A DNA stretch of 64,000 bases from Candidatus Omnitrophota bacterium (GCA_019052695.1 JAHQRI010000001.1:7755-71754); one strand, 5' to 3'. Shown: positions 9,266-41,735, counted from the stretch's first letter. A program made the numbers and translations. Notes: generated by a model not told the origin, from the sequence alone.

Positions 9266-9270
9266 GACGT

Positions 9271-9357
9271 GGAGGGATGGCAGAGCGGTCGAATGCGGCG
9301 GTCTTGAAAACCGTTAGGCGCGCAAGTGCCTCGTAGGTTCGAATCCTACTCCCTCCG
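9271..9357 (+). tRNA. tRNA-Ser (anticodon UGA)
   Basis: GGAGGGA acceptor stem. Anticodon loop cTTGAAa gives TGA. Long variable arm. T-arm GTAGG-TTCGAAT-CCTAC. No encoded CCA. Confidence 0.85.
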
Positions 9358-9720
9358 TTTGGTTTTATTATCGGACGGTCTTGCCACCGCCTGCGAAGCG
9401 GCGGGGTCCCGTCCGGAGGCGGAAAAAAAACCGGAGGAGTCGTAAGGCTCTCAGAGGTTCGCCACCGCCAGAGAATCGGCGGGGTCTCGCCGAAGTTCAG
9501 GCGGGAAATCCTACTCCCTCCGTTTGGTTTTATTATCGGACGGTCTTGCCACCGCCTGCGAAGCGGCGGGGTCCCGTCCGGAGGCGGAAAAAAAACCGGA
9601 GGAGTCGTAAGGCTCTCAGAGGTTCGCCACCGCCAGAGAATCGGCGGGGTCTCGCCGAAGTTCAGGCGGGAAATCCTCTCGCCGCCGCTCGATTTTAGTT
9701 GTCGGGCGGTCCTGCGAGAG
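9342..9720. repeat. 165-bp tandem direct repeat, 2 full copies plus a diverged partial third, each starting with the tRNA 3' end
   Basis: aatcctactccctccgtttggtttt... recurs at 9342, 9507 and, diverged, 9672. Each unit also holds two GC-rich ccgcc/ggcgg mini-hairpins. Confidence 0.85.
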
Positions 9721-25162: not shown

Positions 25163-25446
25163 GGACCCCCCTTTTTGTAGAGATTTTTTAAGTTTCCGAC
25201 CGGTTAGAAAATGCTACAAAAACTGACTAGGATAAAATACTACAATGAATAAAAATAACAATCAATACTATTTTTTTTAACGGACCGCGTTTCTTGTAAA
25301 CATAAACCCAGCAAGAGTTTACAAAATTGGCGCCGAATCATAAAAACTAGCAACTATTGACAATTTATAAATAATAGAGTACTTTGTGGAGTAGTATATA
25401 GCTATATTTGAGGTTAAAATAGCAATAGCAAACAAGGAGAGAAAGT

Positions 25447-25668
25447 ATGGAACAAGAAAAGGATGAGAAACAAGTTGTCCAATACCCGAAGCGAGAGCGA
25501 ACCCAAATTATGACGCCCAAGGAAGCGGCGAAATACCTCGGGTTCCATCTTGTGACGATCTACCGCCTCTTGAAAAAGGGCGATGTTCCCGCGACGAAGA
25601 TCGGCGGGCAGTGGCGCTTCAAAAAAGACGTCCTGGATGCTTGGTTGAATGATCGCATGAACCAGTAA
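25447..25668 (+). CDS. helix-turn-helix DNA-binding protein, excisionase (Xis/AlpA) family
   Basis: MTPKEAAKYLGFHLVTIYRLLKKGDVPATKIGGQWRF. AAGGAGAG RBS. Preceded by about 260 nt of AT-rich DNA. Confidence 0.6.
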   Translation: MEQEKDEKQVVQYPKRERTQIMTPKEAAKYLGFHLVTIYRLLKKGDVPATKIGGQWRFKKDVLDAWLNDRMNQ

Positions 25669-28703: not shown

Positions 28704-30839
28704 TTAAGCCGCTTTTTGATAAGATTCCTGCCCGATGATCTCCTCGACAAGGATCCGCAAGAGCCCCAGGAACTCCGGATCTTTGGCTGCTCCGTAAAGG
28801 TCGGGGCTCAGTGCGACAACGCGGTAGAGTACCAGGGAAACGGGTGCCTCGGGGAGGACCACGTAAGCGTCGCTTTGGTAACCGTCTTTCATGATCGCGA
28901 AGGGGTATTTTTGAGCGAGCCGCCGGAACCGCGGCGTCTGGGTGACGAGAGTTCCGATATCTTCCACCTCAAACCGGTCGATCCCCCTCGGGGCGAGGAG
29001 CGCTTCGGGGAGCTCGGCCACGGGGAGGTCCTGGGCCAGGACGAGCGTGTCATGGTTCTCGATGATCGACTCGATCAGCCGGGGGACCGAGCGGTCGGGG
29101 ATCAGGTCCTTCAGGACGCTGGCTTGGGAAACGAGCAGGGTCTTCCTGCGGCCTGTCCGGGACCGCTCCATCCAGTCACGGACGGCGGCGAGCTGGTCTT
29201 CTCTTCCCCGGGACATGAATTCCGACTTCTTCAAAGAGATGACCGGGATCGCGTGGTCCTCGGATCCGCTTTCGAAAATTTTGCGGGTGGCGCGCAAATG
29301 CGAGGGTTTTTCCGCATCCGAAACGGACAGGGGCCCTCCGAGGAATGCTGCGACGGCTTTGCGGACGTCCTTGGTTTGCAACAACACCGTGTAAGCCCTC
29401 GTGAACTGCTCGTCCGCGGCGGCGGTCGCGTTCCTGAGCTCGGAGAGGGTCTGGTCTCCGGCCGGATTTTCCTGCATTCGCGCCAGGTAGAGGGCTTCGT
29501 TGACGGTCGTGTCCTCGCCAAGCTCCGGTGTGAGGGTGACGAAAGAGATCCCGGCCTCGCGGAGCTTTTGGGACAGACCGTCGGTGTGGAAGCCGCCGGT
29601 GACGACGGCGACGGGTCCCCGGAGCGCCGGATCACGCATGATCCTTTCAAAAAAGACCTCGTCACGCGCTTGCACGAGAGCATAGAATTCGAGAGCGGAG
29701 ATCCAGGCGGCGGTCAGCTCGGGGGTCTCGAGTTCCGCTTCGAGGGCAAGCTTCTCCCTTTCGGCCCTTTTCAGGTCGGACGGCGTTGCCTTGAGAAGCA
29801 GGACCTTTTCGGCGAGATAGAAACGCTCGGTCCTGTCCCAAAGGGCCCGTGCTTCGGGGCTCAAAAACATTGCGTCGGCAATGCGGTCTTTCAGGACCTG
29901 GATCTGGGCGTTCAGATCCGCGGGCGTGACCTTATCCCGGAGAGCGATGAGCTGCCGGAACTTCTTGATTTCTGGGTACCCGCCGTATTTTTCAGAGGCG
30001 ATGTTCCCGCTTCTGAGAAGTTCTTCGAAATTCCAGGAGGTGTTCTTGTATTTCTGTGTGAGATCCCTCACCTCGGACTCAAAACGCTCCCGCGGGATCG
30101 AATTTTCGAGGTCCATGATCTCCCGGACCAATGCGATCTGGTCGAGCCCAGTGTCCTTGACCCCTTGGGCTGCGGCGTTCTCTGTGAGGACCTTGAAGAA
30201 TTTTCCGAGATCCGACGTCCGATGGAAATCCCCATAGGCCTTGGCGAACGAGCGGAGAACGTCCGTCCAGGTCGCGGCTTGTTCCTCGCGGAGCGCGGAG
30301 GCGGCGGCCTCCAGTTTTTCAAGGATCTCGGAGGTCATCGACCGGTGGGCGAGCAAACTCTCCCGGTTCTTTTCGTAGAGGGGGGCGTCTTCGATCCCTA
30401 CGAGCTCTAGCGGTGAGGAAGCGAGGATCCCGGCGTAGAGGGGTCCCGACAGACGATCTTCTTCGAGAAGTGAGCGGGCGAGCAACTGCTTTTCACGGGA
30501 CGTCGGGATCGCTCGACTTTGGGTCAAGGCGGTCGCGGTCCAGGCACCCTCCAGGGCTACGGTCTGAATTCCGAACGCTTCGCGTAAATGGTCGAGGATC
30601 GCTGCGATATTTTCCTGCGCGATGAAGTGCGCGTGAACGTCCTGGACTTGAATGACCGTGCGGGGGCTTTGACCCACGTACCGTTCTTGGACCTTTCCCA
30701 AGGCCTCCGGCAAGGCAAGGTCGGTGAGGGAAAGTGTCGGGACCGCGTTATTCTCCGCGGAGCTTTCGGGCAGGGACAAAGCAAGCGATGCGAACAGGAT
30801 CCACGTGAGAGAGAGAACAAAATTTTTTTTCTTCATCAA
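28704..30839 (-). CDS. exported 711-aa protein with TraB/GumN(Tiki)-like module, paralogous to the N-terminus of the giant protein
   Basis: Signal peptide MMKKKNFVLSLTWILFASLALS after an AAGGAG SD. VIQVQDVHAHF..VALEGAW aligns with LLIHIQEAHANY..VLLEGAG of the giant protein. VVTGGFHTDGL aligns with LITGGFHTEGL, a GX2H motif. Confidence 0.6.
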   Translation of the reverse strand: MMKKKNFVLSLTWILFASLALSLPESSAENNAVPTLSLTDLALPEALGKVQERYVGQSPRTVIQVQDVHAHFIAQENIAAILDHLREAFGIQTVALEGAWTATALTQSRAIPTSREKQLLARSLLEEDRLSGPLYAGILASSPLELVGIEDAPLYEKNRESLLAHRSMTSEILEKLEAAASALREEQAATWTDVLRSFAKAYGDFHRTSDLGKFFKVLTENAAAQGVKDTGLDQIALVREIMDLENSIPRERFESEVRDLTQKYKNTSWNFEELLRSGNIASEKYGGYPEIKKFRQLIALRDKVTPADLNAQIQVLKDRIADAMFLSPEARALWDRTERFYLAEKVLLLKATPSDLKRAEREKLALEAELETPELTAAWISALEFYALVQARDEVFFERIMRDPALRGPVAVVTGGFHTDGLSQKLREAGISFVTLTPELGEDTTVNEALYLARMQENPAGDQTLSELRNATAAADEQFTRAYTVLLQTKDVRKAVAAFLGGPLSVSDAEKPSHLRATRKIFESGSEDHAIPVISLKKSEFMSRGREDQLAAVRDWMERSRTGRRKTLLVSQASVLKDLIPDRSVPRLIESIIENHDTLVLAQDLPVAELPEALLAPRGIDRFEVEDIGTLVTQTPRFRRLAQKYPFAIMKDGYQSDAYVVLPEAPVSLVLYRVVALSPDLYGAAKDPEFLGLLRILVEEIIGQESYQKAA

Positions 30840-31156
30840 CGGCTCCTTCGGGTGGAGGACCGATGCTTTGCCCGGCGCCCGATCTTTTCAGTGCTTTTTG
30901 TTCCAATGACCCCTCCATTATATAGTCCGAAAAACCAAAGAAATCAATAGGCCAAAAGGATCCGTGGCCGGATGCAGCCGGCTAAAAGCTGTTGTAACAA
31001 TTTATAACAAGACTTATTGATAGCTTTCAATATTTAAAAAAGGAATGAATTATTTTGTAAATCCTTTTTCAAATACTTGAATTCTTTTTTTTATATGGTA
31101 ACTTTTGCGTGAGTTTCATATCAATTGTCCCGAAAGGCGAGACGCTGACCCAAATC
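30840..31156. promoter_or_regulatory. AT-rich divergent promoter region between the two paralogs
   Basis: Sharply AT-rich against the GC-rich background. Several TATAAT/TTGAAT-like hexamers on both strands. Confidence 0.4.
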
Positions 31157-34100
31157 ATGGATTTTCCCTTAAGTGTGAAACGGTCCCTAGCGGTGACGGT
31201 GGCGGTCTGTTTTTTCGTGACCAGTCTGCCCGTCTCTCGTTCGTTCGCTGCGGCGGCTGTAGAGCCCTTCAGGGCACCATCCCAGCTGGACATTCCCATG
31301 GCATGGGGCAAGGTGACGGACATTGTCCGCCAGCCAACCGAAAATTCACCGCTTTTGATCCACATCCAGGAAGCCCACGCCAATTACGACGCTCAAAGGA
31401 ACATCCGGGATCTATTAAAGCATCTTGCCGAACACTACGGGGTCCGGTTGGTACTTCTGGAAGGCGCGGGCAATCAGCTTAATCCGGATCTGTTCCGATT
31501 TTTTCCCGATGAACCCGTGCTGCAGCAAACCGCGAACGACAAGCTCATGCGGGCGGGATTGCTTACCGGTGCCGAGACATTTTTGATCGACGAAGGAAAT
31601 GCCTCGAAAGCGGAAGGGTGGGGCGTTGAAAGGGCCGATCTGTACGCCAAGAACCGGGAGGATTTTAAGCAGGTCTACGAAGGCCGCAAGCTGTCCGCGG
31701 GATTTCTGGAAGATTTTTACCTTCGCTGGCAAAAATACGCATCACTTTTTTTGAGTAAGCCTCTCAGGGAATTTTTGTCCAAAGAGACTGCCTTTGAAGA
31801 GGATACATTGCCTCTCGCGGACTGGATGAACTTTCTTAGAACAGCGGCAGCACGGGAATTGAATATTGACCTCGAGAATGTTCGGGAACAGGCCGATTGG
31901 CCGGTTCTTGTCCGCTATTTCCGTCTCAAAGCGATCGACCCCAAGATCGACGTGCAAAAAGTCGAAGCGGAAAAGAAGGCATTTTTTGAACAAGTTCAAA
32001 AAATCGTAACTCGTTCCTCGGGACTCGGGACTCGAGAAACAAAGGATTCAAACAAGTCCCGAGGAACTAGTCTCGAGTCTCTTTTAGCAGAAGTTGAAGC
32101 GATCCTTGAACAGGCGAAAACGCACGACCTGCCCCTCTACAAAACCCGTTTCGTTTTTGAAAGATTGCTTGACCGGCTTCCGGAGGATTTTTCTTTCGAT
32201 ACTTATCCGGCTCTCCGGCTTTATCTCCAGCAGATCGTCCTTATGAGTGAACTTCAAGGGGATGCTTTGCAGGAGGAGATCAAGACCCTGAGCGGTAAGC
32301 TGACGGAAGTTCTCAGTGAGACAGAAAAAGACAGACGGTTTGCAGCGATCCTGCGCGATTTCCGGCTCCTTAAAAAACTTTTCCGGCTTGAGTTAAACCG
32401 TGGTGAATACCGTGACATTCTCATGCGCAAGATCACGCCCGGAAAAATTCTTCAGGAGCTCAGGGCCCAGGACCCAAAAGCGGAGGATCTCCCCCAAGAC
32501 CCTTCAGCCAGGTTCCGAAAGCTCGAAGCTCTTTATGGGACGGCAACCCGCTTTTACGAGGGAGCGATCGAGCGTGAAGGTGCGATGATGGAACGGGTGT
32601 TTGCAAGGATGCAGGAGCAGAAACAGACCAAGGCGGTGCTGATAACCGGCGGTTTTCACACCGAGGGCCTCAAGGAAAAAGCGGTCCGCGAGGGAAGCTC
32701 CTACATTGAGATCACGCCCCACATCGGCGAGATCACTTCTCATGATCGGGAAAATTATTTACGGGCCCTGCTTGGCAGAAATCTCGGCGTAACACCTGAC
32801 TACCGGTCAAGCGGGCGCAACGCCCAACGCGCAACGCAGGACAAAACCGTCGCGCTTCGAACATTGAGCGTTGAACGAAGCGAAATCGCGGCCCTGCTTC
32901 GTGGCGATATCCCTTTTTTAAAAGAAACGTCACGGGCTTGGCGCAGAGAGCTGGCAGAATTCGGAGCGGTTCTTTCCGAGCATTTGAGACAGATCACCAG
33001 CTCCGAAAAAGCCCGGGGGGCGGTCAACCACTACATAGCCGGGGCCGTTCGTGTTCCGTCTTTTGACGCCATGAAACGCCGTTCCGAAACGCGGGAGAGC
33101 GTTAAAGAGCTATCCGGGAAGGTCCTCAGAATTCCGGAACTGATGCTCCAACTTCCGCTTGAACCCGGGACTGAAGCCCTGGAAGGAACGCGCCGCATGG
33201 TAGGGCCGCTTGAAAAGGCGGCGCGACTGTTGGAGCCCCTCCTGGAGAGTTACGGGATCGGCAGCATTTGGCCTCACAACAGTCTTTTTGAAATGGGGGA
33301 ACTGTCCACCCGGATCCATCAGGTCCCCGACTCTGGCGAACACTTTCTGGTTTCCACGAACGGTAAAACGACCGTCAGGGTCGCGGGGTATGAAACAAAA
33401 CAAAAGGCTCTGGGGAACCGGGTTCTCCGCGACGACAAAGGGAACGCTTATTCTATTCGGGGAATGCGGAAGCTCAATCCCCGTTTGTCGGATTCGGCAA
33501 CGGAACAAGGGAACGCCGCAAAAACGGCAGAGCAGCTCATCGCTTTGAACAGAAAAGCCCGCAGTCTCGGGATCCGGACCGTGGCGGATTTTATCCCTGA
33601 GCTCGCGCCGGAAGCGATCAATGATTACAACCTCGATTGGACTTTTCATGAAAAACTTTCGCCGGGGGAAACGCAGTATTTCAACAGTCTTCCGGAAGAA
33701 ATAAAACAGTCCTACATCAACAGCAGCGTTCGTAAATGGGGGGGCGCTTTCTTCGCCAGGAGGTTGGGAAAATGGGGCAATGAAGAGATCGCCATGGTCC
33801 GTCATTTTCCCGGTCTCGGGAGCGGGCAGAACGTGGACCAGGCGCTCCTTAATGTTTTTGTTCCGGCGGTACAGAATTATTACAAGGACTCGCTTCGCTT
33901 TCTCATAGATCTGGGCTTTGACGCGGTCAGGATCGATATGGCGTCCTATCTTCTCGGGAAGAACCTGATCCGGTTCGTGAACGACAAGGGCCTGAGGTCG
34001 GATGTGCCGATGGAAGGGGAGCCTTTGAGGGAGATCATCCGGTATGCCAAGGACTACGCGTTCCAAAAGGGACGTTCTTTTGAGGTCGTGGCCGAAATTT

Positions 34101-37100
34101 ATGACGAGGAAGACCGGAATGCCTTGATGAACACGGGTGTTGACGTCGGGACCGATGTTCGCACCTACGATAACAGTTTTTTTGAAGAGCTTTTCAGATT
34201 CTCCCAAGATCCAGAGGCCCCGGCGGCGGACCTCGCGAGAATGATCGTGGAAAAGATCCTTCATAAGCTCGGGGATCCCGAGAACCGCGAAAATTTTCTC
34301 GCTTATTTTTCAAACCATGATCAAACCCCTCTTGCGGTGATGGCGGATCATAACAAAGAGATCGGAAAGAACTTCTCGTTGGCCGGCGTGACCGCGCTTT
34401 TGCTTGTGGGGGCTTATCTGGCGGAACCTTTCCTCAGCTTTTTTTTGACGCTCCGGGATTCTCTGGGGCAACGGGGCGATATCCTGCCGACCGTCGGCGG
34501 GGACATCAAGGACCATCGGGCCGACCTTGGGGGGAGGCACGCGCATCCGTTCCTCGAAACATCTCGCGAACTGACCGTCAGGACACATATCGAAAAGTTG
34601 GAAACCGCGATCCGAAAATCGTTTGCGTCGAAATTCTTGAAAGAACTTCACGCGGCCGCGAAAGGGACGGGGCAGACTTACATAAGGTTTCTGGAGAACG
34701 AGGATCCGGGCCGCGTCGCGAGTTTGGGTTGGCGGACCGTAAGCGGGGAATGGGTGGTCTTCGCGGTCGATCTCAGGCCTCATCAGGGTCCGCTCCATCT
34801 CAAACATATCGAATCTCCGGTGTTTCCCAAGGAAGCAGGTTCTCTGCAGGAATGGGAAGCCAAGGACGCGCTGACCGGTTCCAGTTTCGGAATTATATTC
34901 AAACGAGAAGGAGAGGCGACCCATCCTAGGATCCGGAATATTTCGTTCGGACAGGAAAGCGCCAACTACCGGCTGATCGTAATTACCCCGAAAGAGCATA
35001 AGAAACCCACCGAAAAGGTCCGCAACGAAAGAAAGAGGATGAAAAACGCGAACCAATTGAAACCTAAGGTAATCAACGAGCTCGATAGCATTGCCCGAGG
35101 CAGCGCGAAGGGCTATGAGTTTTTGATGCACCCCGCTTTTGAAAATTACTCGAACGCGCACAAAAAACAAGCAAGGGCCTACTTGCAGTTGCTAGCCGGA
35201 TCCTCGAATGATCTCATGGACATTTTAAAAGGCGCCCAGGAATTTCTCCGGAGTTACTACGCTAACATTGAGCGCATTCGCGAGAAATACGAAGAGACCG
35301 AGGAAGAAGCGTCCTTCGCGGTCAAGAAAGGGCCGCCCCTGTGTTATTTTGGGGGAAAGGACTTTGAGGGTTTTGAAAAGTTGTCGCCCGCGGATTTTTT
35401 AGAATCCCAGGGGGTTTCCGTCGGGGAGCTAAAAAACAGCGAGGCCAAGTTCAATTTGAGACAAGCCATACCCGCGACTTCGAGAACATTGGTCTTGGGG
35501 AAAAGCCTCGAACTTCCCAGGGCGAAGTCTTTGAACGCGGAAACGCTGAACCAACTGCTCCGAAGCCAGGGAGTGGAATATATTTCTGACATCACAGATA
35601 TCGCGTTTTATAAAATTCCCCGCTCCGAATTGCGTCAGGGTGATTTGCTTCCTCGCGCAGTCTCCGGCCTGATCTCGGGGGTCGCCGGCGGCAGCGTTCA
35701 AACGGTCATGGAGCTGAAACGTTCCGAGCTAAGGGATGAGAAGTTCCGGGGTTCCTACGAAGTGACCGAAGATGACAAAGGGCGAATCGTGATGCCCGCG
35801 CCGCTCAGGAAAAAGATCGCCGAAGACCTCGTGGGTGAAGTTGAGAAATATACCGATGAGTTCGGGCAAGAGCAGATCCTGTTCCGGATCTGGGAGGCGT
35901 CCGCCTGGGAAGAGAATTTCAAACAGGGTCTTCCGAAAGATAAGACAAAAGCCAGGGCCTATAAGGATCGGGAGTATGCCCGGATCTTTGATGTGGAGCT
36001 TTATGGTGAGGCCGGAAGGCTGAATTTGGCCGAAGTTCGCGCCAGGGGTCTTTTAAGCGGACCCGGGACCAAGTTTTTAGTCCAAGGGGCCGGAGATTCG
36101 ATCATTCTCAAGCCCAAGACCGCGCGCGCCGAACTGCGGACAGTTTCCCCCAAAAGGGGGCTTGAAGCTTACACCGTGGTCAGCCGCCAATTAGAGGCCG
36201 GCCTGGACCGGAGTATTTTGGAAGAAGTCCGTAAAAGTTTAGCGGACCGTTTCTCCGGGATGGGGAAAAGCTGGATCCGGCGGTATGTAGGGCTTGTGGC
36301 CGAGTTGACATTGACCGGCGGATTGGGCGCTCTCATGCATGACCTTTTCCCGGCGTGGGCACAAGCTTTGGGGATCAAGAACAAAGACCGCAAGGGGCTG
36401 ATCGCGATCAATGCGATCTATGACAATATCAAAGGACAGCAATATGCCAAATATCTTCCCGATGAAGTCAGGCAGGGGAAGACGACTTTGGGAGAATATT
36501 TGCGCGGCGTTTTGAAACGCGATGAAAGCCTGAACCTTGCGTTCGGTATGGACTTCGGGGAAGATTTCCGCCGCAAGACCGCCGAAGAAAGGGCCTGGGC
36601 CGAGCAGTACGGAAATCCGGGATACAAGGAAGCGGCCCGGAAAACGGAGAATATCATCGGAAAGACCATCCGAGTGGATGTTTACCCGACCCAAACCCAT
36701 TTTAACCAGACGCCCAATTATTATATCGACGCTTACTTTCTTGACAGCGAGGGCAAGAAGGTCCACATTTTTGATGAAGTCTATCCCGACGCCCCGCACG
36801 GCCGCCCTAATCTTTGGCGTGATATTCACATGGCAGTTTACGGATGGGCCACCCAGCACTTGGTGCGCGAACTCCAGCAAAAAGGCGTTGTGAAGGACAA
36901 TATCCTCTTCGTGGACAATGAGGTTTTTGTGAGCACGCCGACGCCGCTGTTCCCGGACGCGGTCCACCATCACATCAACCACACGGTTTTTCGTCCCGGT
37001 CTCTACATGCCGAACGAAGCCTCTTATGAAATGCTGGGGTATCCCGAGATCCAGCGTAAATATATTACGAAGAACGGGAAGATCGACATCGTCAACGCCG

Positions 37101-40100
37101 TGGGGATATCGTCCCGCTTGATCACGGGGGTGGCGATCTATGAACATACGAAGGCTTTAGAAGAAGATGTGATGGCGGCCTTCCCCCATAAGCTGCAAGC
37201 TTTCAACAAGGACGGTGTCCGCAACACCAACGGTGTTTTGATGGAGCAATGGCAGCTGCCGGCTTTGAGGGACTTGATCAGCGCGCATAAAGAAAAACTC
37301 GGTTTAAAACCGCAGGCCGCGGACAAGAAAATTTTTGAGAAGATAACCGCTTCAGGACAAGAAATGGTCCTTGAAGAGTTCAAACAAAAAGCGGAATTTG
37401 CGAAGGCGACCGGAGTTCTCGAGCTTCTTTTGTGGCTCAAAGAGGACCAGAATTTTCCCGCATGGTTTGACGAGATCGGTCTGGCTTATGCGTCGCAATC
37501 CGGCCTGAAGAATATAGATGACCAGAAATTGGTCGAGGATTTCAGGGATGCGGTGGCCGCGGCGATGGTCGATCCCGCGGCATGGCAGGCACTCATGCAG
37601 CGGCAGGATCTTGTCTGGTTGAAAAACGCGTTGTTCGAAAATCCGATCCTTGCCAATGTCCGCCGGCAGGTACCCTATAAAGGGCCGGACAAATGGCTGG
37701 AGATCCTCGAGAAATTGAGGGTTGATCCGCAGGCGCTGGAAGAATTCAAACGGGACGCCCCGCGTGTGATCATCGGCGGCCGTGAATTTGGCGACGACGC
37801 GCACTGGATGTTCCTGAGGATCCAGTCGCTGGTGGAGGAACTGGGACTGAAGGACAAGATCGCGACGATCGAAGACTACAATATCTATATCGCCCCGGTC
37901 ATTTTCGGGGGTGTTTCAGGGTCGATGATGCTTTCGGACGAAAAGCTGGAAGCTTCCGCGACCAGCATGATGAAGGCGATGGCGAACATGGCGGCCCTGA
38001 TGGGGGTCTGGGGCGGGGCCAATCCCGAACTTTTTACGATCATTGATAAGAAGACAGGCCGTGAACTGAACGCCATCCGGGACAAGATCACTCACGATCA
38101 GCTGGTGGAAAAAATGGCGAGCGGGGAGTGGGAAGTCCCTAACGGATTTCTGGTCGCTTACAGCCAGGAGGAATACAGCAACCAAACGGGAGGGGAAAGG
38201 CGTCCTTCGACGGCCTCTCTCATTCAAAGCCTATACGATCTTAAAAAGACCTGCCGGGATCCTGGCAGCCGCCGCAACCTTCAATTTGCCGTGCTCCGGT
38301 CGACCCCCAATGTGGATATGGCTAAAGGACAGGCCATCGCCCACAAAGCGTTATGGGAAAAAACCATCCAGACCTTGCAAAAGGAAGACGAATTTTTTGA
38401 AAGCTTGGATATTTCAGCGGACGACGCGGAACAATTTCTCAAAAAATCACTTGCTCAAGAAGGAGGCCTGGAATTCCTTTGGCACGGCACGACCCAGGAC
38501 GCTTGGAATATTCACGGGATCTTGGGGTTCATTCAGGGATTCCGTCATCTGCGCATGAAAGGGAGGGAGAGTTACAACAGCGTTGCTTTTCATGCGTACA
38601 ATGGAAAAAAAGGGGACATTTTCACATACCTTGAAAAATTCTTCGAAGGGTTCGATGAAACCTTCATTCCCGTGACGCGAAAGCTCAAAGCGCTTTCAGC
38701 CCGGGCGCAAAAGGCGGGATCCCCGCAGGACAAAGTCCGTGCTAATTTGGAAGCTTTGGAGCTCGTCGAACGGCTTGCGGTCGCGATATCGTTCCATCTT
38801 TTCAAGCACTATGTGAAGACCGGCGATAAAAAAGCAGAGGCCTATTGGGCCAATCCTGCGGTCCGCGAAAACCTTTCGATCTATTTGGAGAAAAACGGCG
38901 TTCCTTTCAAATCGATCGCCAAGAATATCCGCGGGTATGCGGTGGACATAGAAGGACAGCGATATATCGTCGCGCTCAATTTCGGCGAGTTCGGTTTCCC
39001 GGGCGAAAAAGGGGAGAAGGCCTGGGGTTCCTTTTATGGCCGTGAGGCGCTCGATCATCTTTTAGAAAAACCGGAAGAAACGCACATTTACCAGGTGCTT
39101 GATGCGATCTCTGGGGAAGTTTATGGGAAATATTCTTTGCGCCAAATGGTCGAAACAATCCGGATCGGCGTCCCCTCTTTGGGCGCCCAGGTCCTGCAGG
39201 TCGTGGATTCCGGGGAACGGACCGAAGCATCAGAGGCTGCGCTGAGCGGGGATGTCCTGGGATATCTTGAAGCGTTAACGGCAGGCCGTCTTGTGAGCGA
39301 TGAGGTGCCGATCACACAGCTCCTTTTCAGGCAGGTCGTCGACGAAGGGACCGTTGTTGCCGGAAAGGGAGAGGAGGCCGGTCGAAAAAGGATCGTTGAT
39401 CCCACGAAGATGGAACCGTTGTTGAGCCGTGTGACGGGTCTTTCCAGGAAAGAGGCGGTCGAAAAATTCGGAGAAAAAGGGATCCCTCCCGTTATGGCCT
39501 TTATTGCGGTCCTGTCCCCGGCCGGTCTCGAGCAGATCAGGGATTGGAATGACGAGGTTTATACCGCGCTGAACGGGGTGATCCATCAGCCGCAAATTGA
39601 AAAGCTTCTTCAGGACGGCGCTCTTTGGTTCCACAAAACCGACCGCGCAAGCGCGCTGGTCATTTCAAAAAGCCTGGACGGGAAAAATGTGGTCGTCCCC
39701 ATCCATTTTTCCGCGACTCCTTTCCGTTCCGTTGACGGCAAGGCATGGTTCCGGGTTTCGGATTTTGACCGGTTGGGCGTTTTGCTTTCCGAAAACGGCA
39801 GGTACCAGGCCCGCAATGTTCTTGCCAATAAAGTCTATCCGCTTCAGCACGATCAAGAAAAGATCTCCGGCGAGAAGTGGTCCCTCGGCGTTCCCGTCGC
39901 GGTGCCGGAAGACCTGGGCGTTTTTCACGAACCTCTTTATCACTTTCAGGTCCTCGAGATCATTCCCGCCGTTTCTGAGCCGGTCCAGCGCTCGGAAATG
40001 CGGGAAGGTATCACGACCATTCCGAGGACGACGGAGGCCCTTATTGAAACGAATCGATCCATGGGCGGGGGAGCGGTACGGGGATTCCGCGGGGTCACGG

Positions 40101-40717
40101 ACAAGATCACCGGCGGGATCTGGTCGCTTACGGTCTACGCCTTCCATGCCGTAGAACTCACAGCATCGTTCTTTGGCCTGACAGCTGCCCCGGCCCCTGA
40201 GGCTTTTGATATCGCTGCGGTCCCTGCGACCCCTGAGGAAAAGAAACGTTTTGACGACGCCCGAAAGGTCCTGTTCGGCGGAAAGGCCTACGGGGATTCG
40301 GACGTTCTGATCCTTGCGCCGGAGTTCGGGGTCGATCTTGGCGCGGCGCTCCTCATGCGGAAGGTTGCCGGGGACGTTCCGGTCGCGGTGCTCGTGCGGG
40401 ATGATGCCGACCGCCGGTTCCTTGACCAGATCAACTCCGAGCTTGAAGCGGGGAACCGCCCGTTGATCTTTGCGGCAGGGACGCTCCGTGAGGCCGCCCA
40501 GTACCTGAGGAGGGCGGTGCGCGGGAAGATGAATATCAAGCCGATGGTTTACGCGGGAGAGAATAACCCTCAAGCCGATCTTTTGTTGCAGCAGTACGGG
40601 GACGCGGTGATCACCGTCACGCAGGGTATGTTCCGGAACTTCCTCAGCCTTGCCGGGATCAGCGAGACCGTGACCCGATTGCGCGACGAGTACCTCGCGC
40701 TTGCGCGCTCGGCGTAA
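31157..40717 (+). CDS. giant (about 3,186 aa) exported multidomain protein: TraB/GumN-like N-module, GH13-like domain, GT35 alpha-glucan phosphorylase-like domain
   Basis: 9.6 kb open frame. Signal peptide MDFPLSVKRSLAVTVAVCFFVTSLPVSRSFAAAA. GH13 regions GFDAVRIDMASYL, FEVVAEIY, FSNHDQ. GT35 motifs LTGGLGALMHD and EASATSMMKAMANMAALMGVWGG (PLP lysine). Confidence 0.6.
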   Translation: MDFPLSVKRSLAVTVAVCFFVTSLPVSRSFAAAAVEPFRAPSQLDIPMAWGKVTDIVRQPTENSPLLIHIQEAHANYDAQRNIRDLLKHLAEHYGVRLVLLEGAGNQLNPDLFRFFPDEPVLQQTANDKLMRAGLLTGAETFLIDEGNASKAEGWGVERADLYAKNREDFKQVYEGRKLSAGFLEDFYLRWQKYASLFLSKPLREFLSKETAFEEDTLPLADWMNFLRTAAARELNIDLENVREQADWPVLVRYFRLKAIDPKIDVQKVEAEKKAFFEQVQKIVTRSSGLGTRETKDSNKSRGTSLESLLAEVEAILEQAKTHDLPLYKTRFVFERLLDRLPEDFSFDTYPALRLYLQQIVLMSELQGDALQEEIKTLSGKLTEVLSETEKDRRFAAILRDFRLLKKLFRLELNRGEYRDILMRKITPGKILQELRAQDPKAEDLPQDPSARFRKLEALYGTATRFYEGAIEREGAMMERVFARMQEQKQTKAVLITGGFHTEGLKEKAVREGSSYIEITPHIGEITSHDRENYLRALLGRNLGVTPDYRSSGRNAQRATQDKTVALRTLSVERSEIAALLRGDIPFLKETSRAWRRELAEFGAVLSEHLRQITSSEKARGAVNHYIAGAVRVPSFDAMKRRSETRESVKELSGKVLRIPELMLQLPLEPGTEALEGTRRMVGPLEKAARLLEPLLESYGIGSIWPHNSLFEMGELSTRIHQVPDSGEHFLVSTNGKTTVRVAGYETKQKALGNRVLRDDKGNAYSIRGMRKLNPRLSDSATEQGNAAKTAEQLIALNRKARSLGIRTVADFIPELAPEAINDYNLDWTFHEKLSPGETQYFNSLPEEIKQSYINSSVRKWGGAFFARRLGKWGNEEIAMVRHFPGLGSGQNVDQALLNVFVPAVQNYYKDSLRFLIDLGFDAVRIDMASYLLGKNLIRFVNDKGLRSDVPMEGEPLREIIRYAKDYAFQKGRSFEVVAEIYDEEDRNALMNTGVDVGTDVRTYDNSFFEELFRFSQDPEAPAADLARMIVEKILHKLGDPENRENFLAYFSNHDQTPLAVMADHNKEIGKNFSLAGVTALLLVGAYLAEPFLSFFLTLRDSLGQRGDILPTVGGDIKDHRADLGGRHAHPFLETSRELTVRTHIEKLETAIRKSFASKFLKELHAAAKGTGQTYIRFLENEDPGRVASLGWRTVSGEWVVFAVDLRPHQGPLHLKHIESPVFPKEAGSLQEWEAKDALTGSSFGIIFKREGEATHPRIRNISFGQESANYRLIVITPKEHKKPTEKVRNERKRMKNANQLKPKVINELDSIARGSAKGYEFLMHPAFENYSNAHKKQARAYLQLLAGSSNDLMDILKGAQEFLRSYYANIERIREKYEETEEEASFAVKKGPPLCYFGGKDFEGFEKLSPADFLESQGVSVGELKNSEAKFNLRQAIPATSRTLVLGKSLELPRAKSLNAETLNQLLRSQGVEYISDITDIAFYKIPRSELRQGDLLPRAVSGLISGVAGGSVQTVMELKRSELRDEKFRGSYEVTEDDKGRIVMPAPLRKKIAEDLVGEVEKYTDEFGQEQILFRIWEASAWEENFKQGLPKDKTKARAYKDREYARIFDVELYGEAGRLNLAEVRARGLLSGPGTKFLVQGAGDSIILKPKTARAELRTVSPKRGLEAYTVVSRQLEAGLDRSILEEVRKSLADRFSGMGKSWIRRYVGLVAELTLTGGLGALMHDLFPAWAQALGIKNKDRKGLIAINAIYDNIKGQQYAKYLPDEVRQGKTTLGEYLRGVLKRDESLNLAFGMDFGEDFRRKTAEERAWAEQYGNPGYKEAARKTENIIGKTIRVDVYPTQTHFNQTPNYYIDAYFLDSEGKKVHIFDEVYPDAPHGRPNLWRDIHMAVYGWATQHLVRELQQKGVVKDNILFVDNEVFVSTPTPLFPDAVHHHINHTVFRPGLYMPNEASYEMLGYPEIQRKYITKNGKIDIVNAVGISSRLITGVAIYEHTKALEEDVMAAFPHKLQAFNKDGVRNTNGVLMEQWQLPALRDLISAHKEKLGLKPQAADKKIFEKITASGQEMVLEEFKQKAEFAKATGVLELLLWLKEDQNFPAWFDEIGLAYASQSGLKNIDDQKLVEDFRDAVAAAMVDPAAWQALMQRQDLVWLKNALFENPILANVRRQVPYKGPDKWLEILEKLRVDPQALEEFKRDAPRVIIGGREFGDDAHWMFLRIQSLVEELGLKDKIATIEDYNIYIAPVIFGGVSGSMMLSDEKLEASATSMMKAMANMAALMGVWGGANPELFTIIDKKTGRELNAIRDKITHDQLVEKMASGEWEVPNGFLVAYSQEEYSNQTGGERRPSTASLIQSLYDLKKTCRDPGSRRNLQFAVLRSTPNVDMAKGQAIAHKALWEKTIQTLQKEDEFFESLDISADDAEQFLKKSLAQEGGLEFLWHGTTQDAWNIHGILGFIQGFRHLRMKGRESYNSVAFHAYNGKKGDIFTYLEKFFEGFDETFIPVTRKLKALSARAQKAGSPQDKVRANLEALELVERLAVAISFHLFKHYVKTGDKKAEAYWANPAVRENLSIYLEKNGVPFKSIAKNIRGYAVDIEGQRYIVALNFGEFGFPGEKGEKAWGSFYGREALDHLLEKPEETHIYQVLDAISGEVYGKYSLRQMVETIRIGVPSLGAQVLQVVDSGERTEASEAALSGDVLGYLEALTAGRLVSDEVPITQLLFRQVVDEGTVVAGKGEEAGRKRIVDPTKMEPLLSRVTGLSRKEAVEKFGEKGIPPVMAFIAVLSPAGLEQIRDWNDEVYTALNGVIHQPQIEKLLQDGALWFHKTDRASALVISKSLDGKNVVVPIHFSATPFRSVDGKAWFRVSDFDRLGVLLSENGRYQARNVLANKVYPLQHDQEKISGEKWSLGVPVAVPEDLGVFHEPLYHFQVLEIIPAVSEPVQRSEMREGITTIPRTTEALIETNRSMGGGAVRGFRGVTDKITGGIWSLTVYAFHAVELTASFFGLTAAPAPEAFDIAAVPATPEEKKRFDDARKVLFGGKAYGDSDVLILAPEFGVDLGAALLMRKVAGDVPVAVLVRDDADRRFLDQINSELEAGNRPLIFAAGTLREAAQYLRRAVRGKMNIKPMVYAGENNPQADLLLQQYGDAVITVTQGMFRNFLSLAGISETVTRLRDEYLALARSA
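32815..32878 (+). repeat. CGCAACG heptamer hairpin element inserted in-frame in the giant CDS
   Basis: gcgcaacgcccaacgcgcaacg ... cgttgaacg. Encodes SGRNAQRATQDKTVALRTLSVERSE between the N-module and the GH13-like region. Confidence 0.6.
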
Positions 40718-40826: not shown

Positions 40827-41735
40827 ATGTCCAAAACATCTTCCCAACTCATGCGCGTAGGGCACAGTCCCGATGCTGACGATGCGTTCATGTTCTACGC
40901 GCTGGCCAAACAAAAGATCCCGATGCGCGGGTTCGAAGTTGAACACGTCATTGAAGACATCGAAAGTTTGAACCAGCGCGCGTTCCGAGGGGAACTGGAG
41001 GTGACGGCGGTTTCCTGCCACGCGTACGCTTATTTGGCCGACCGGTACGCGGTCATGCGTTCCGGGGCAAGCGTCGGGGACAAGTATGGGCCCATTCTCG
41101 TACAACGCCCAACGCGCAAAGCGCAACGAGGAAACAAAAAAGCAGGCAAAGAACGTTGCGCGTTGAGCATTGCGCAAAAGAGAATCGCGATTCCGGGCAA
41201 ATTAACGACGGCCTATTTAACCCTTCAGCTTTATGCGTTGACCGTTGACCGTTGTGCGTTGCGCGGATTTGAACCGGTTTTCATGCCCTTCGACAAGGTC
41301 CTAGAGGCCGTCAAAAACGGAGAAGTGGACCTCGGGCTCGTGATCCACGAAGGACAGATCACGTTCGCGGAACACGGTCTTGAAAAATTTTTGGACCTTG
41401 GCACTTGGTGGCATGAGGAAACGGGACTGCCGCTGCCGCTTGGTGTTGATATCATCCGCCGTGATCTAGGCGAGGGTGTAATGAGGTCTTTTGCGGGCCT
41501 CTTCAAAGAAAGCATCGAATATGCCTTGTCTCACCGTCAGGAAGCTTTAGAATACGCGCTGCAGTTCGGCCGTGGGATCTCGCGAGAACTCAACGACCGT
41601 TTCGTTGGGATGTATGTCAATGACCGGACGGTGGATATCGGGAGGGACGGAGAGGCGGGGTTCCGCGCATTACTTGACCTGGCATACCAGCATAAGATCG
41701 TGCCCAACAAAATTAACTTTGATTTTATCGGTTAA
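40827..41735 (+). CDS. MqnA/MqnD-family (menaquinone via futalosine) protein
   Basis: MRVGHSPDADDAFMFYAL matches the GxSPCPNDTFxFxAL-type N-terminus. Start may be the ATG near 40851. Two heptamer-repeat insertions in-frame. Confidence 0.55.
   Translation: MSKTSSQLMRVGHSPDADDAFMFYALAKQKIPMRGFEVEHVIEDIESLNQRAFRGELEVTAVSCHAYAYLADRYAVMRSGASVGDKYGPILVQRPTRKAQRGNKKAGKERCALSIAQKRIAIPGKLTTAYLTLQLYALTVDRCALRGFEPVFMPFDKVLEAVKNGEVDLGLVIHEGQITFAEHGLEKFLDLGTWWHEETGLPLPLGVDIIRRDLGEGVMRSFAGLFKESIEYALSHRQEALEYALQFGRGISRELNDRFVGMYVNDRTVDIGRDGEAGFRALLDLAYQHKIVPNKINFDFIG
41099..41176 (+). repeat. CGCAACG heptamer hairpin element in-frame in the MqnA/D-like CDS; a second, arm-only copy at 41235..41265
   Basis: acaacgcccaacgcgcaaagcgcaacg ... 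cgttgcgcgttgagcattgcg. Encodes RPTRKAQRGNKKAGKERCALSIAQKR. 41235..41265 gcgttgaccgttgaccgttgtgcgttgcgcg encodes ALTVDRCALRG. Confidence 0.6.

What the first reader, a model, noticed from the sequence alone, without database searches (positions are those of the whole stretch)
28704..32800. Divergently transcribed paralog pair sharing the N-terminal module, around an AT-rich control region
The 711-aa exported protein on the minus strand is co-linear for about 480 aa with the N-terminus of the giant protein: ALGKVQERYVGQ..VIQVQDVHAHF..VALEGAW versus AWGKVTDIVRQP..LLIHIQEAHANY..VLLEGAG; LYEKNRESL versus LYAKNREDF; FFERIMRDPALRGPVAVVTGGFHTDGLSQKLREAGISFVTL versus MMERVFARMQEQKQTKAVLITGGFHTEGLKEKAVREGSSYIEI.

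It then continues into an unrelated ~230-aa tail. The two genes fire away from each other from a 317-bp AT-rich spacer (30840..31156), the most AT-rich stretch in the window. A short and a giant sibling sharing a head domain and one control region looks like a two-component unit, for example receptor/anchor plus enzyme, or sensor plus effector.
Basis: seen in the sequence. Interest (0 to 1): 0.6.

Follow-up and report, generated by a model that had tools for sequence, protein, structure and literature searches.

The report
Conserved short/giant hydrolase-head gene pair
Two back-to-back genes of an uncultured Omnitrophota bacterium, one ordinary in size and one giant, share an unannotated ~450-residue enzyme-like "head" that also begins thousands of other very long bacterial proteins, so it may be a common handle on how such proteins are made.

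Summary
The 710-aa protein (28704-30836, -) and the 3,186-aa protein (31157-40717, +) share a co-linear N-terminal module. BLASTP gives E 2e-12 and 1e-11; profile-profile comparison gives 100% probability, E 8e-66, over 430 columns.

The window comes from a Candidatus Omnitrophica MAG. In 27 non-redundant related loci the short gene has a head-bearing long gene (1,787 to 11,695 aa) diverging from it. Both promoters and a central direct repeat in the spacer are conserved.

The head has no Pfam or NCBIfam model. Three weak but concordant lines place it in the Tiki/TraB/erythromycin-esterase/ChaN superfamily:
- It keeps an invariant [DE]-x-H, E (+28), R, GGFH signature with the spacing of the RRSP catalytic set.
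- Sub-threshold ChaN/TraB Pfam hits recur in 12 of 123 members.
- EreC, Bcr135 and ChaN are the top alpha/beta Foldseek hits.

The head opens at least 764 (E<=1e-30) and up to 7,109 (E<=1e-3) 50%-identity clusters, mostly proteins of 1-8 kaa. Many also end in a conserved ~245-aa C-terminal cap around mosaic enzyme cargo.

The short protein belongs to an ancient, monophyletic stand-alone branch with its own tail. Its function and any coupling to the giant are inferred, not shown. The "sensor plus effector" reading is not supported, and the spacer is only the second most AT-rich stretch.

The parts
28704..30836 (-). Short gene, 710 aa (MKKKNF...), identical to NCBI KTQ49_00185 'hypothetical protein' of a Candidatus Omnitrophica MAG
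   Evidence: P0001, 100% identity. There are 143 homologous 90% clusters. The 120 listed are mostly 680-800 aa (range 443-996), and every source name given is an Omnitrophica/Omnitrophota MAG or plain 'bacterium'. No Pfam or NCBIfam hit.
30756..30836 (-). Sec-type signal peptide of the short protein (aa 1-27, MKKKNFVLSLTWILFASLALSLPESSA|EN)
   Evidence: Hydropathy scan and reading of the sequence. No signal-peptide predictor was available.
29439..30731 (-). Head module of the short protein (aa 36-466). Putative catalytic residues are D66-x-H68, E96, R391 and G414-G-F-H417.
   Evidence: hhalign against giant-type heads, E 7.9e-66. These residues are invariant in 66 of 66 orthologues. In the AF2 model (pLDDT 87) they sit at the C-terminal ends of beta strands.
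28707..29234 (-). Family-specific alpha/beta tail of the short protein (aa 535-710)
   Evidence: Well folded in the AF2 model. Found only in short orthologues. No match in the giant. No Pfam hit.
30919..30947 (-). Putative promoter of the short gene: TTGATT (30947-30942), 17-nt spacer, TATATA (30924-30919)
   Evidence: TTGATT-N17(..GGTTCTGGGC)-TATATA is conserved in about 22 paired loci. The simple promoter scanner did not report it. Inferred, not mapped.
30994..31010 (-). Central direct repeat TTGTTAT-AAA-TTGTTAC (consensus TTGCTAT-N3-TTGCTAT, 10-bp period), a candidate regulator site
   Evidence: Unique in the window, with 0.05 expected by chance. Found about 61 bp upstream of the short gene's -35 in most paired loci.
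31059..31104 (+). Putative promoter of the giant gene. It has an upstream AAATCCTTTTTCAA element that forms the palindrome TTCAA-N4-TTGAA with the -35 (TTGAAT, 31077-31082). A 16-nt spacer follows, then an extended -10 (TGG TAACTT, 31096-31104).
   Evidence: Conserved in 27 of the 29 paired regions examined (the window plus 28 loci). In 1.34 Mb of fetched loci the motif occurs almost only at this position. One match in the window against 0.00 expected.
31157..40717 (+). Giant gene, 3,186 aa from ATG 31157. The stop-free ORF runs from GTG 31109 and is 3,202 aa.
   Evidence: Full-length orthologue P0130 (3,160 aa, 71% identity in the head).
31157..31249 (+). N-terminal signal peptide or signal anchor of the giant (MDFPLSVKRSLAVTVAVCFFVTSLPVSRSFA|AAA)
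   Evidence: Hydropathy scan and reading of the sequence.
31274..32791 (+). Head module of the giant (aa 40-545). Putative catalytic residues are E72-x-H74, E102, R473 and G498-G-F-H501.
   Evidence: H74, E102, R473 and GGFH501 are invariant in 57 of 57 giant-type heads. D or E occupies position 72 in 48 of 57. AF2 model pLDDT 84.9. Pfam PF04187 (ChaN, Tiki superfamily) matches aa 462-503 at E 0.071.
33527..34402 (+). Divergent GH13 alpha-amylase-like cargo region (aa 791-1082)
   Evidence: PF00128 at E 0.0012, 18.6 bits, below the 22-bit cut-off. The block is shared with the neighbour giants in L005, L008, L021 and L028.
34379..34453 (+). Hydrophobic segment aa 1075-1099, either a second membrane span or a buried core
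   Evidence: Kyte-Doolittle score 1.82. A similar segment occurs in P0130, P0132, P0137 and P0138. Topology is unresolved.
35744..35959 (+). MraZ/SpoVT-AbrB-like domain (aa 1530-1601)
   Evidence: PF02381 at 23.5 bits against a 23-bit cut-off. NCBIfam MraZ models hit weakly.
36119..39976 (+). Conserved cargo block (aa 1655-2940) containing a divergent alpha-glucan phosphorylase (GT35)-like region at aa ~2124-2296
   Evidence: PF00343 at 27.2 bits against a 27-bit cut-off, on 63 aa. TIGR02094 E 5.7e-06. PDB 4bqe E 0.0043. The block occurs at different offsets in other giants.
39977..40714 (+). Conserved C-terminal cap (aa ~2941-3186)
   Evidence: jackhmmer finds it in 36 of 146 head-bearing representatives, and in 35 of those it lies at the extreme C-terminus. 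No Pfam or PDB match.

Best explanation
The locus is a conserved divergent pair of genes from an Omnitrophota bacterium. Each encodes an exported or membrane-anchored protein that begins with the same unannotated domain of about 450-500 residues.

That head is a remote member of the Tiki/TraB-PrgY/erythromycin-esterase/ChaN superfamily with an enlarged helical lobe. It keeps the full catalytic-type residue set (acid-x-His, Glu 28 residues later, Arg, and a second His in GGFH). It is therefore most likely an active hydrolase, either a peptidase or an esterase.

In the giant, the head is the generic N-terminal module of a widespread 'head - variable enzyme cargo - C-terminal cap' architecture. 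Here the cargo is glucan-active: GH13-like, GT35-like, plus a MraZ-like domain. The short protein is the stand-alone, cargo-less branch of the same family, carrying its own tail domain.

The two genes fire from two conserved sigma-70-type promoters that flank a conserved direct repeat, so they are probably co-regulated.

Shown here: paralogy, conservation of the pair, conservation of the promoter elements, the architecture, and residue conservation.

Inferred: extracytoplasmic location, hydrolase activity, co-regulation, and my preferred role. That role is that the heads work at the outer face of the inner membrane in maturation, processing or tethering of the long polypeptide, with the short protein acting in trans or on the same substrate.
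For: Paralogy.

Organism and short family.

The pair is conserved. A divergent head-bearing long ORF starts roughly 200-450 bp upstream of the short orthologue (up to ~1 kb in L039) in L001, L005-L013, L016, L018, L020-L022, L025-L028, L030, L034, L039, L044, L046-L048, L057 and L060. The same holds when starting from a giant-type protein (L087).

Cis elements are conserved and locus-specific.

Assignment to the Tiki superfamily rests on three lines:
- The residue pattern and spacing match RRSP (E3900-x-H3902, E3930, R4001, H4030) and Bcr135 (H85/E113), as described in PMC6254334. The residues are invariant here.
- PF04187 is hit by 10 of 57 giant-type heads (best E 0.0012) and 1 of 66 short orthologues. 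PF01963 is hit by 1 of 57. The two hits whose coordinates were reported (PF04187 in the window's giant and in L068) lie on the C-terminal GxxH region. No unrelated family is hit by more than 3 giant-type heads; among the short orthologues ThiI_fer is hit by 7 of 66.
- Foldseek with the giant head model returns EreC, Bcr135 and ChaN as 6 of the top 12 hits. By their descriptions the other six are mostly long helical or coiled-coil proteins.
- The AF2 models place the conserved residues at the C-terminal ends of strands.

The head is a generic N-terminal module. It matches 7,109 / 4,834 / 764 representative clusters at E<=1e-3 / 1e-10 / 1e-30, and in the top 150 it is nearly always at residues ~10-550 of proteins 1-7.7 kaa long.

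C-terminal cap and mosaic cargo.

N-terminal signals.
Against: - Hydrolase activity, substrate, localisation and transcription were not measured.
- The short gene occurs without the giant at this locus in many genomes (L003/L038, L014, L031, L035, L037, L040, L041, L050, L052-L055). Head-bearing long genes also occur elsewhere without a short neighbour (L061-L084, L088). The coupling is therefore not obligatory.
- Cargo enzymes such as a glucan phosphorylase are normally cytoplasmic. That sits awkwardly with full export, and the topology after the hydrophobic segment at aa 1075-1099 is unknown.
Confidence: 0.55

Rival explanations
1. The adjacency is only historical. An ancient inverted duplication left two paralogues back to back. 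They now work independently, and the conserved spacer reflects only two ordinary promoters.
For: The short family is an old, separate clade. The short gene persists where the giant slot is empty or holds an epimerase gene. Head-bearing long genes are common elsewhere in the same genomes, for example L065, L071, L076 and L082.
Against: The pair survives down to ~33-40% identity between short orthologues (L034, L039, L044, L046, L048). Over that range the cargo of the giant is completely reshuffled. The spacer also keeps a central direct repeat and a palindrome over the giant's -35, at fixed spacing. That points to selection on a joint control region.
Confidence: 0.25
2. The head is not an enzyme. 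It is a binding, anchoring or dimerisation platform, for example ChaN-like ligand binding or a periplasmic docking module for export of long polypeptides. The short protein would pair with the giant's head as an adaptor.
For: The recurrent Pfam hits are to ChaN, a haem-binding member of the superfamily. Some Tiki-fold proteins such as PMT are inactive (PMC6254334). The head's fixed position just after the signal sequence, in proteins with unrelated cargo, suggests a generic biogenesis role.
Against: The complete acid-x-His / Glu / Arg / His set is invariant in 123 sequences across several phyla. The inactive member PMT lacks this set.
Confidence: 0.2
3. The giant is a membrane-tethered multi-enzyme for glucan (glycogen or starch-like) turnover, and the head is simply one more hydrolytic activity acting on the same polymer or on prey envelope material. 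The short protein would be a soluble isoenzyme.
For: GH13-like and GT35-like regions are present. Published catalogues report sugar-metabolism modules in Omnitrophota long proteins (bioRxiv 10.64898/2026.06.07.730766) and propose cell-wall degradation (bioRxiv 10.1101/2023.11.21.568195).
Against: Neighbour giants with the same head and promoter carry quite different cargo: methyltransferases in L005, PPDK_N/PEP-utilisers in L006, and nothing annotated across 11,695 aa in L001. The head is therefore not tied to glucan chemistry.
Confidence: 0.15

Closest known systems
Tiki superfamily: TIKI1/2, TraB/PrgY/GumN (PF01963), erythromycin esterases EreA-C and Bcr135/136, ChaN (PF04187), RRSP of MARTX toxins
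   Same: The heads have an alpha/beta core with conserved residues at strand ends. They share the acid-x-His, Glu (+28), Arg and second-His signature with matching spacing. They also have a helical lobe inserted between the two halves, as in Ere enzymes. Many members of the superfamily are extracytoplasmic or membrane-tethered (my own knowledge for PrgY, TIKI and ChaN). RRSP likewise sits inside a very long multi-domain protein (PMC6254334).
   Different: No member model reaches its threshold. The helical insertion is much larger, about 290 residues between the Glu and the Arg. The GGFHT[ED]GL and IQ[DE]xHxxxxAQxN motifs are specific to this family. Here the domain is the fixed N-terminal module of long proteins, not an internal effector.
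Omnitrophota giant proteins (Archaeovorins, Dockerin-type and multi-enzyme classes; West-Roberts et al. 2023 preprint, Nielsen & Lui 2026 preprint)
   Same: Same phylum. Both are long, signal- or TM-bearing polypeptides tiled with divergent metabolic enzyme domains. The orthologous slot in L001 holds an 11,695-aa protein.
   Different: The window's protein is 3.2 kaa, below those studies' size thresholds. It lacks HEAT, SecA, dockerin and TSP3 content. Its flanks are the short paralogue and an mqnA-like gene, not T2SS/T4P and pilZ genes. Those papers describe the N-terminal regions as generally lacking identifiable domains. In the passages I searched or read, neither mentions this head, the C-terminal cap or a short divergent paralogue.
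MARTX multifunctional autoprocessing toxins
   Same: Both are very long secreted polypeptides with conserved termini, interchangeable internal enzyme modules and a built-in protease.
   Different: No RTX repeats or cysteine protease domain were detected. Autoprocessing here is only a hypothesis.

Membership tests
Tiki/TraB/EreA/ChaN superfamily | Catalytic-type residue set: acid-x-His on one strand, Glu on the next strand, a conserved basic residue, and a second His (the 2His/2Glu + Arg set of RRSP and the His-Glu pair of Bcr135) | tested here: met
   Short protein: D66-x-H68, E96 (+28), R391, H417. Giant: E72-x-H74, E102 (+28), R473, H501. The residues are invariant in A1 (66 sequences) and A3 (57 sequences), except the first acid, which is D/E in 48 of 57 giant-type heads. 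Spacing matches RRSP E3900/H3902/E3930/R4001/H4030.
Tiki/TraB/EreA/ChaN superfamily | Significant sequence-profile match to a member family (PF01963, PF04187, PF05139) | tested here: not met
   The best hits are PF04187 at E 0.0012-0.07 (13-20 bits against a 27.7-bit cut-off) in 11 of 123 members, and PF01963 at E 0.021 in one. The recurrence and the placement of the two reported PF04187 hits on the GxxH region are suggestive, but every hit is sub-threshold. hhalign against a shallow YbaP alignment was null.
Tiki/TraB/EreA/ChaN superfamily | Tiki alpha/beta fold: a parallel beta-sheet core flanked by helices | tested here: inconclusive
Omnitrophota 'giant gene' loci (Archaeovorin/Dockerin type) | Length above 10-30 kaa with HEAT/SecA or dockerin/TSP3 content, a T2SS/T4P cluster upstream and pilZ downstream | tested here: not met
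   The protein is 3,186 aa. Its only Pfam matches are weak GH13, MraZ and phosphorylase hits. Its neighbours are the short paralogue and a VitK2_biosynth gene.
GH13 alpha-amylase / GT35 alpha-glucan phosphorylase (cargo) | Match above the family threshold over the catalytic domain | tested here: inconclusive
   PF00128 scores 18.6 against 22 bits. PF00343 scores 27.2 against 27 bits, but on 63 aa only. TIGR02094 scores 25 against 192 bits. PDB 4bqe gives E 0.0043.
MARTX-like autoprocessing multi-effector proteins | An autoprocessing protease that releases the modules, plus RTX repeats | not testable with these tools
   No CPD or RTX Pfam hits. Testing cleavage needs proteomics or biochemistry.

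The most novel reading that the evidence does not exclude
The head and the C-terminal cap define a general carrier architecture for thousands of long and giant exported polyproteins in Omnitrophota, Elusimicrobiota, Planctomycetota and Chlamydiota. In this reading the N-terminal Tiki-like hydrolase matures or releases the interchangeable enzyme cargo, as the protease domain does in MARTX toxins. The conserved divergent short paralogue would be its co-regulated, trans-acting maturation or control factor.
Probability: 0.15. Interest if true: 0.85.

Novelty: new variant of a known kind. Interest (0 to 1): 0.62.

Why it matters
Omnitrophota and their relatives encode some of the longest proteins known, and how those proteins are exported, anchored or processed is an open question. 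The preprints I searched describe the N-termini of these proteins as lacking identifiable domains.

This work suggests something more specific. A large class of such proteins starts with one recognisable, probably catalytic, Tiki-like domain and often ends with one conserved cap. A stand-alone paralogue sits beside one of them under a conserved control region. That yields concrete targets: four residues to mutate, two promoters and two candidate operator sites to map, and a 710-aa protein small enough to purify.

It would also add a large, architecturally distinct branch to the Tiki/TraB/Ere superfamily and supply a missing domain model for annotating metagenomes.

Tried and rejected
- The short tail is not a homologue of the giant's C-terminal cap, so the short protein is not a 'cargo-less giant' in that sense. 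BLASTP best E 0.89; hhalign probability 0.6%.
- Sequence searches of PDB with the short protein, with its family profile and with three pieces of the giant gave nothing useful. The only hit was a weak phosphorylase match.
- Foldseek on the whole short-protein model gave nothing significant.
- hhalign of the head against an E. coli YbaP (TraB family) alignment was null. Whole, split and insertion-deleted versions of the head were all tried. The YbaP alignment was very shallow (Neff 2) because the homologue search returned only close enterobacterial relatives.
- The consensus promoter scanner missed both conserved promoters, and its only hit is probably spurious.
- The HTH_17 gene at 25447-25668 has TTGCTAT repeats in its own upstream region and looked like a candidate regulator of the pair. 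It has no homologue in any related locus.
A4 was used instead.
- There is no further head-bearing ORF in the window.

Full report
**Observation**

The window holds a 711-codon ORF on the minus strand (28704-30839) and a 3,202-codon ORF on the plus strand (31109-40717). The likely starts are ATG 30836 (MKKKNF..., preceded by AAGGAG) and ATG 31157. The latter aligns with the start codons of orthologues.

BLASTP of the short protein against the giant's first 614 residues gives two co-linear HSPs, at E 2e-12 and 1e-11. A profile-profile comparison of 66 short orthologues with 57 giant-type heads gives probability 100%, E 7.9e-66, over 430 columns, with short 36-466 aligned to giant 40-579.

The tail of the short protein matches nothing in the giant. 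The spacer is AT-rich at 40% GC. It is not the most AT-rich stretch, because 25176-25475 reaches 30.7% GC.

**Source and conservation of the pair**

The short protein is identical to a hypothetical protein of a Candidatus Omnitrophica MAG. It has 143 homologous clusters. The 120 listed are mostly about 700-750 aa, and every source name given is an Omnitrophica/Omnitrophota MAG or plain 'bacterium'. None has a Pfam domain.

I fetched neighbourhoods for four homologues and 79 loci from species-representative genomes. I then scored every stop-to-stop ORF with the window's short head, short tail and giant head.

- In 27 non-redundant loci a head-bearing ORF starts roughly 200-450 bp upstream of the short gene on the opposite strand (up to ~1 kb in L039).
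- That ORF usually runs more than 3,000 aa off the end of the fetched flank.
- Where the neighbour's length is on record or complete, it is 1,787, 1,885, 2,103, 2,284, 2,908, 3,744, 4,642 or 11,695 aa.
- The pair persists down to about 33-40% identity between short orthologues (L034, L039, L044, L046, L048).
- Starting instead from a giant-type fragment (P0121) also recovers a divergent short orthologue.

The coupling is not universal.

- In L003/L038 the short gene diverges directly from an mqnA-like VitK2_biosynth gene. In the window that gene lies just after the giant.
- In L014 and L031 an NAD-epimerase gene fills the slot.
- About ten distant orthologues have no giant neighbour.

The downstream synteny (SRPBCC, EEP phosphatase, ACT) is shared between the window and L005/L006; L001 shares only the first two genes.

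**The control region**

An alignment of four spacers, followed by pattern searches over 29 paired regions, shows three conserved elements.

1. The giant's promoter. The consensus is tGATAAATCCTTTTTCAA-N4-TTGAAATTT-N10-TRTGnTAnnTT. This reads as a -35 TTGAAA that forms a palindrome with the upstream TTTCAA, a 16-nt spacer and an extended -10.
   - It is present in 27 of the 29 paired regions examined (the window plus 28 loci).
   - In 1.34 Mb of fetched DNA the core motif occurs almost only at this position.
   - In the window it lies at 31059-31104, with 0.00 matches expected by chance.
2. The short gene's promoter, TTGATT-N17-TATATA, in about 22 loci. In the window it is at 30947-30919 on the minus strand.
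3. A central direct repeat, TTGCTAT-N3-TTGCTAT, about 61 bp upstream of the short gene's -35. In the window it is at 30994-31010 and is unique there.

The simple promoter scanner did not report either promoter. Co-conservation at fixed spacing argues for a jointly selected control region. Co-regulation itself remains an inference.

**What the head is**

Pfam and NCBIfam have no model for the head, and PDB sequence searches are empty. Three independent weak signals converge on the Tiki/TraB-PrgY/erythromycin-esterase/ChaN superfamily.

1. Residues.
   - The short family has invariant Q65-D66-x-H68, E96, R391-D392 and G414-G-F-H417.
   - Giant-type heads from Omnitrophota, Elusimicrobiota, Planctomycetia, Chlamydiae and Endomicrobiales have invariant H74, Q80, E102, R473, G498-G-F-H501, P521 and Y534. 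D or E occupies position 72 in 48 of 57.
   - The Tiki-family endopeptidase RRSP uses E3900-x-H3902, E3930 (+28), R4001 and H4030 (+29). Bcr135 uses H85/E113 (+28) (PMC6254334).
   - Here the Glu lies 28 residues after the first His, and the Arg 26-28 residues before the second His.
2. Profiles.
   - PF04187 (ChaN) is hit by 10 of 57 giant-type heads (best E 0.0012), including the window's at aa 462-503, and by 1 of 66 short orthologues.
   - PF01963 (TraB/PrgY/GumN) is hit once.
   - The two PF04187 hits with reported coordinates (the window's giant and L068) lie on the C-terminal GxxH region. No unrelated family is hit by more than 3 giant-type heads; among the short orthologues ThiI_fer is hit by 7 of 66.
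3. Structure.
   - The AF2 models are confident: short pLDDT 87.1 and giant head pLDDT 84.9 with pTM 0.79.
   - Both show the same strand/helix order. The conserved residues sit at strand ends, and a large helical lobe lies between the two halves.
   - Foldseek with the giant head lists EreC (6xcq, 6xcs), Bcr135 (3b55, 2rad) and ChaN (2g5g) as 6 of the top 12 hits of 350,542 chains. By their descriptions the other six are mostly long helical or coiled-coil proteins, presumably matching the lobe.

Each line is sub-threshold on its own, and a YbaP-based hhalign was null. I put superfamily membership at about 0.75 and an active hydrolase at about 0.6.

**How widespread the head is**

An exhaustive HMMER search with the giant's first 568 residues finds 7,109 representative clusters at E<=1e-3, 4,834 at <=1e-10 and 764 at <=1e-30. 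Among the best 150 the match is almost always at residues ~10-550 of proteins with a median length of 2.5 kaa and a maximum of 7.7 kaa.

In genomes these long genes also occur away from the short gene, sometimes two in tandem (L067, L069, L070, L081, L084). Head-only proteins exist as well (L062, 556-codon stop-to-stop ORF; P0126-P0129).

In a neighbour-joining tree the short family is monophyletic (41 of 41) and about as far from its neighbour giants as from heads of other phyla. The pair is therefore ancient, not a recent local duplication.

**Architecture of the giant**

Comparison with the 146 representatives shows the head in 145 and the middle shared with only 3-9. A ~245-aa C-terminal module is found in 36, and in 35 of those it lies at the extreme C-terminus. 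Many representatives may be truncated, so this could be a lower bound.

Giants at the orthologous position share the head. They carry the GH13-like block and the phosphorylase-like block at different offsets, or not at all. Recorded cargo elsewhere includes methyltransferases and PPDK/PEP-utilisers.

In the window the cargo comprises:
- a weak GH13 match (aa 791-1082);
- a hydrophobic segment (aa 1075-1099);
- a MraZ-like domain (aa 1530-1601);
- a divergent GT35-like region (aa ~2124-2296).

**Mechanism**

Both proteins begin with Sec-type signals, and so do distant heads. The heads are therefore probably outside the cytoplasm, as I recall is the case for several Tiki-family proteins.

The head is fixed at the N-terminus regardless of cargo. 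I therefore favour a generic role, such as processing, tethering or maturation of the long polypeptide at the membrane, over a cargo-specific chemistry. The short protein would be a stand-alone enzyme of the same kind whose expression is tied to one particular giant. This last step is an inference.

The rivals are a relic adjacency, a non-catalytic docking platform, and a further activity in glucan or envelope degradation. They are scored separately.

**Comparison with the literature**

Two preprints on Omnitrophota giant genes describe T2SS/T4P flanks, downstream pilZ genes, C39/S8 peptidases, and multi-enzyme, repeat and dockerin classes. One states that N-terminal regions generally lack identifiable domains. 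In the passages I searched or read, neither mentions this head, the cap or the short paralogue. Full-text searches linking Tiki, TraB or PrgY to giant proteins or to Omnitrophota found nothing relevant.

**Verdict**

The finding is real and conserved. It leads to a broader result: an unannotated Tiki-like N-terminal module and a C-terminal cap that frame many long proteins. I class it as a new variant of a known kind and score interest at 0.62.

Noticed in passing
window 39977-40714 (giant aa ~2941-3186); P0130-P0275: A ~245-aa module with no Pfam or PDB match ends the giant. It recurs at the extreme C-terminus of 35 of 146 head-bearing long proteins with otherwise unrelated middles. It could be a secretion or anchoring signal.
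   Followed up: partly
window 25176-25668: This is the most AT-rich stretch of the window (30.7% GC). It lies upstream of a 73-aa HTH_17 (excisionase-type) ORF at 25447-25668, with a tandem TTGCTAT-TGCTAT at 25419-25431 that resembles the repeat in the pair's spacer. The ORF has no homologue in the related loci.
   Followed up: partly
L087 721-8469; L089 309-7385: In two metagenomic contigs the head is called as a separate ORF (582 and 358 aa), followed at once by a 4,765-aa or 2,445-aa ORF. These are either frameshift errors or genuinely split giants.
   Followed up: no
L067, L069, L070, L081, L084: Two head-bearing long genes lie in tandem on the same strand in Omnitrophota and Elusimicrobiota MAGs. 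This suggests local expansion of the family.
   Followed up: no
window 35744-35959; L089 1455-7385: A MraZ/SpoVT-AbrB-like domain, normally a cytoplasmic DNA-binding fold, sits inside the apparently exported giant. It is also recorded weakly in another giant of the family.
   Followed up: no
L006 14805-22193: About 2.6 kb beyond the short gene's end, on the opposite strand, is another very long gene (2,932 aa, running off the end of the fetched locus) with GH94/glycoamylase domains. Long carbohydrate-active genes therefore cluster around this locus in some genomes.
   Followed up: no
L058 (JAAYCF010000317.1), L085: A 2-kb contig binned as Thermotogaceae carries a clear short-family orthologue, and a 1.4-kb Myxococcales-labelled contig has a weak match. 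These are probably mis-binned contigs.
   Followed up: no
window 40827-41735 versus L003, L014, L031: The mqnA-like VitK2_biosynth gene marks the far edge of the giant's slot. Without the giant it lies directly beside the short gene, or is separated from it only by an epimerase gene. The giant therefore behaves as an insertion/deletion unit.
   Followed up: partly
window 9270-9358: tRNA-Ser (TGA) is the only RNA gene detected in the window by ARAGORN and Rfam.
   Followed up: yes
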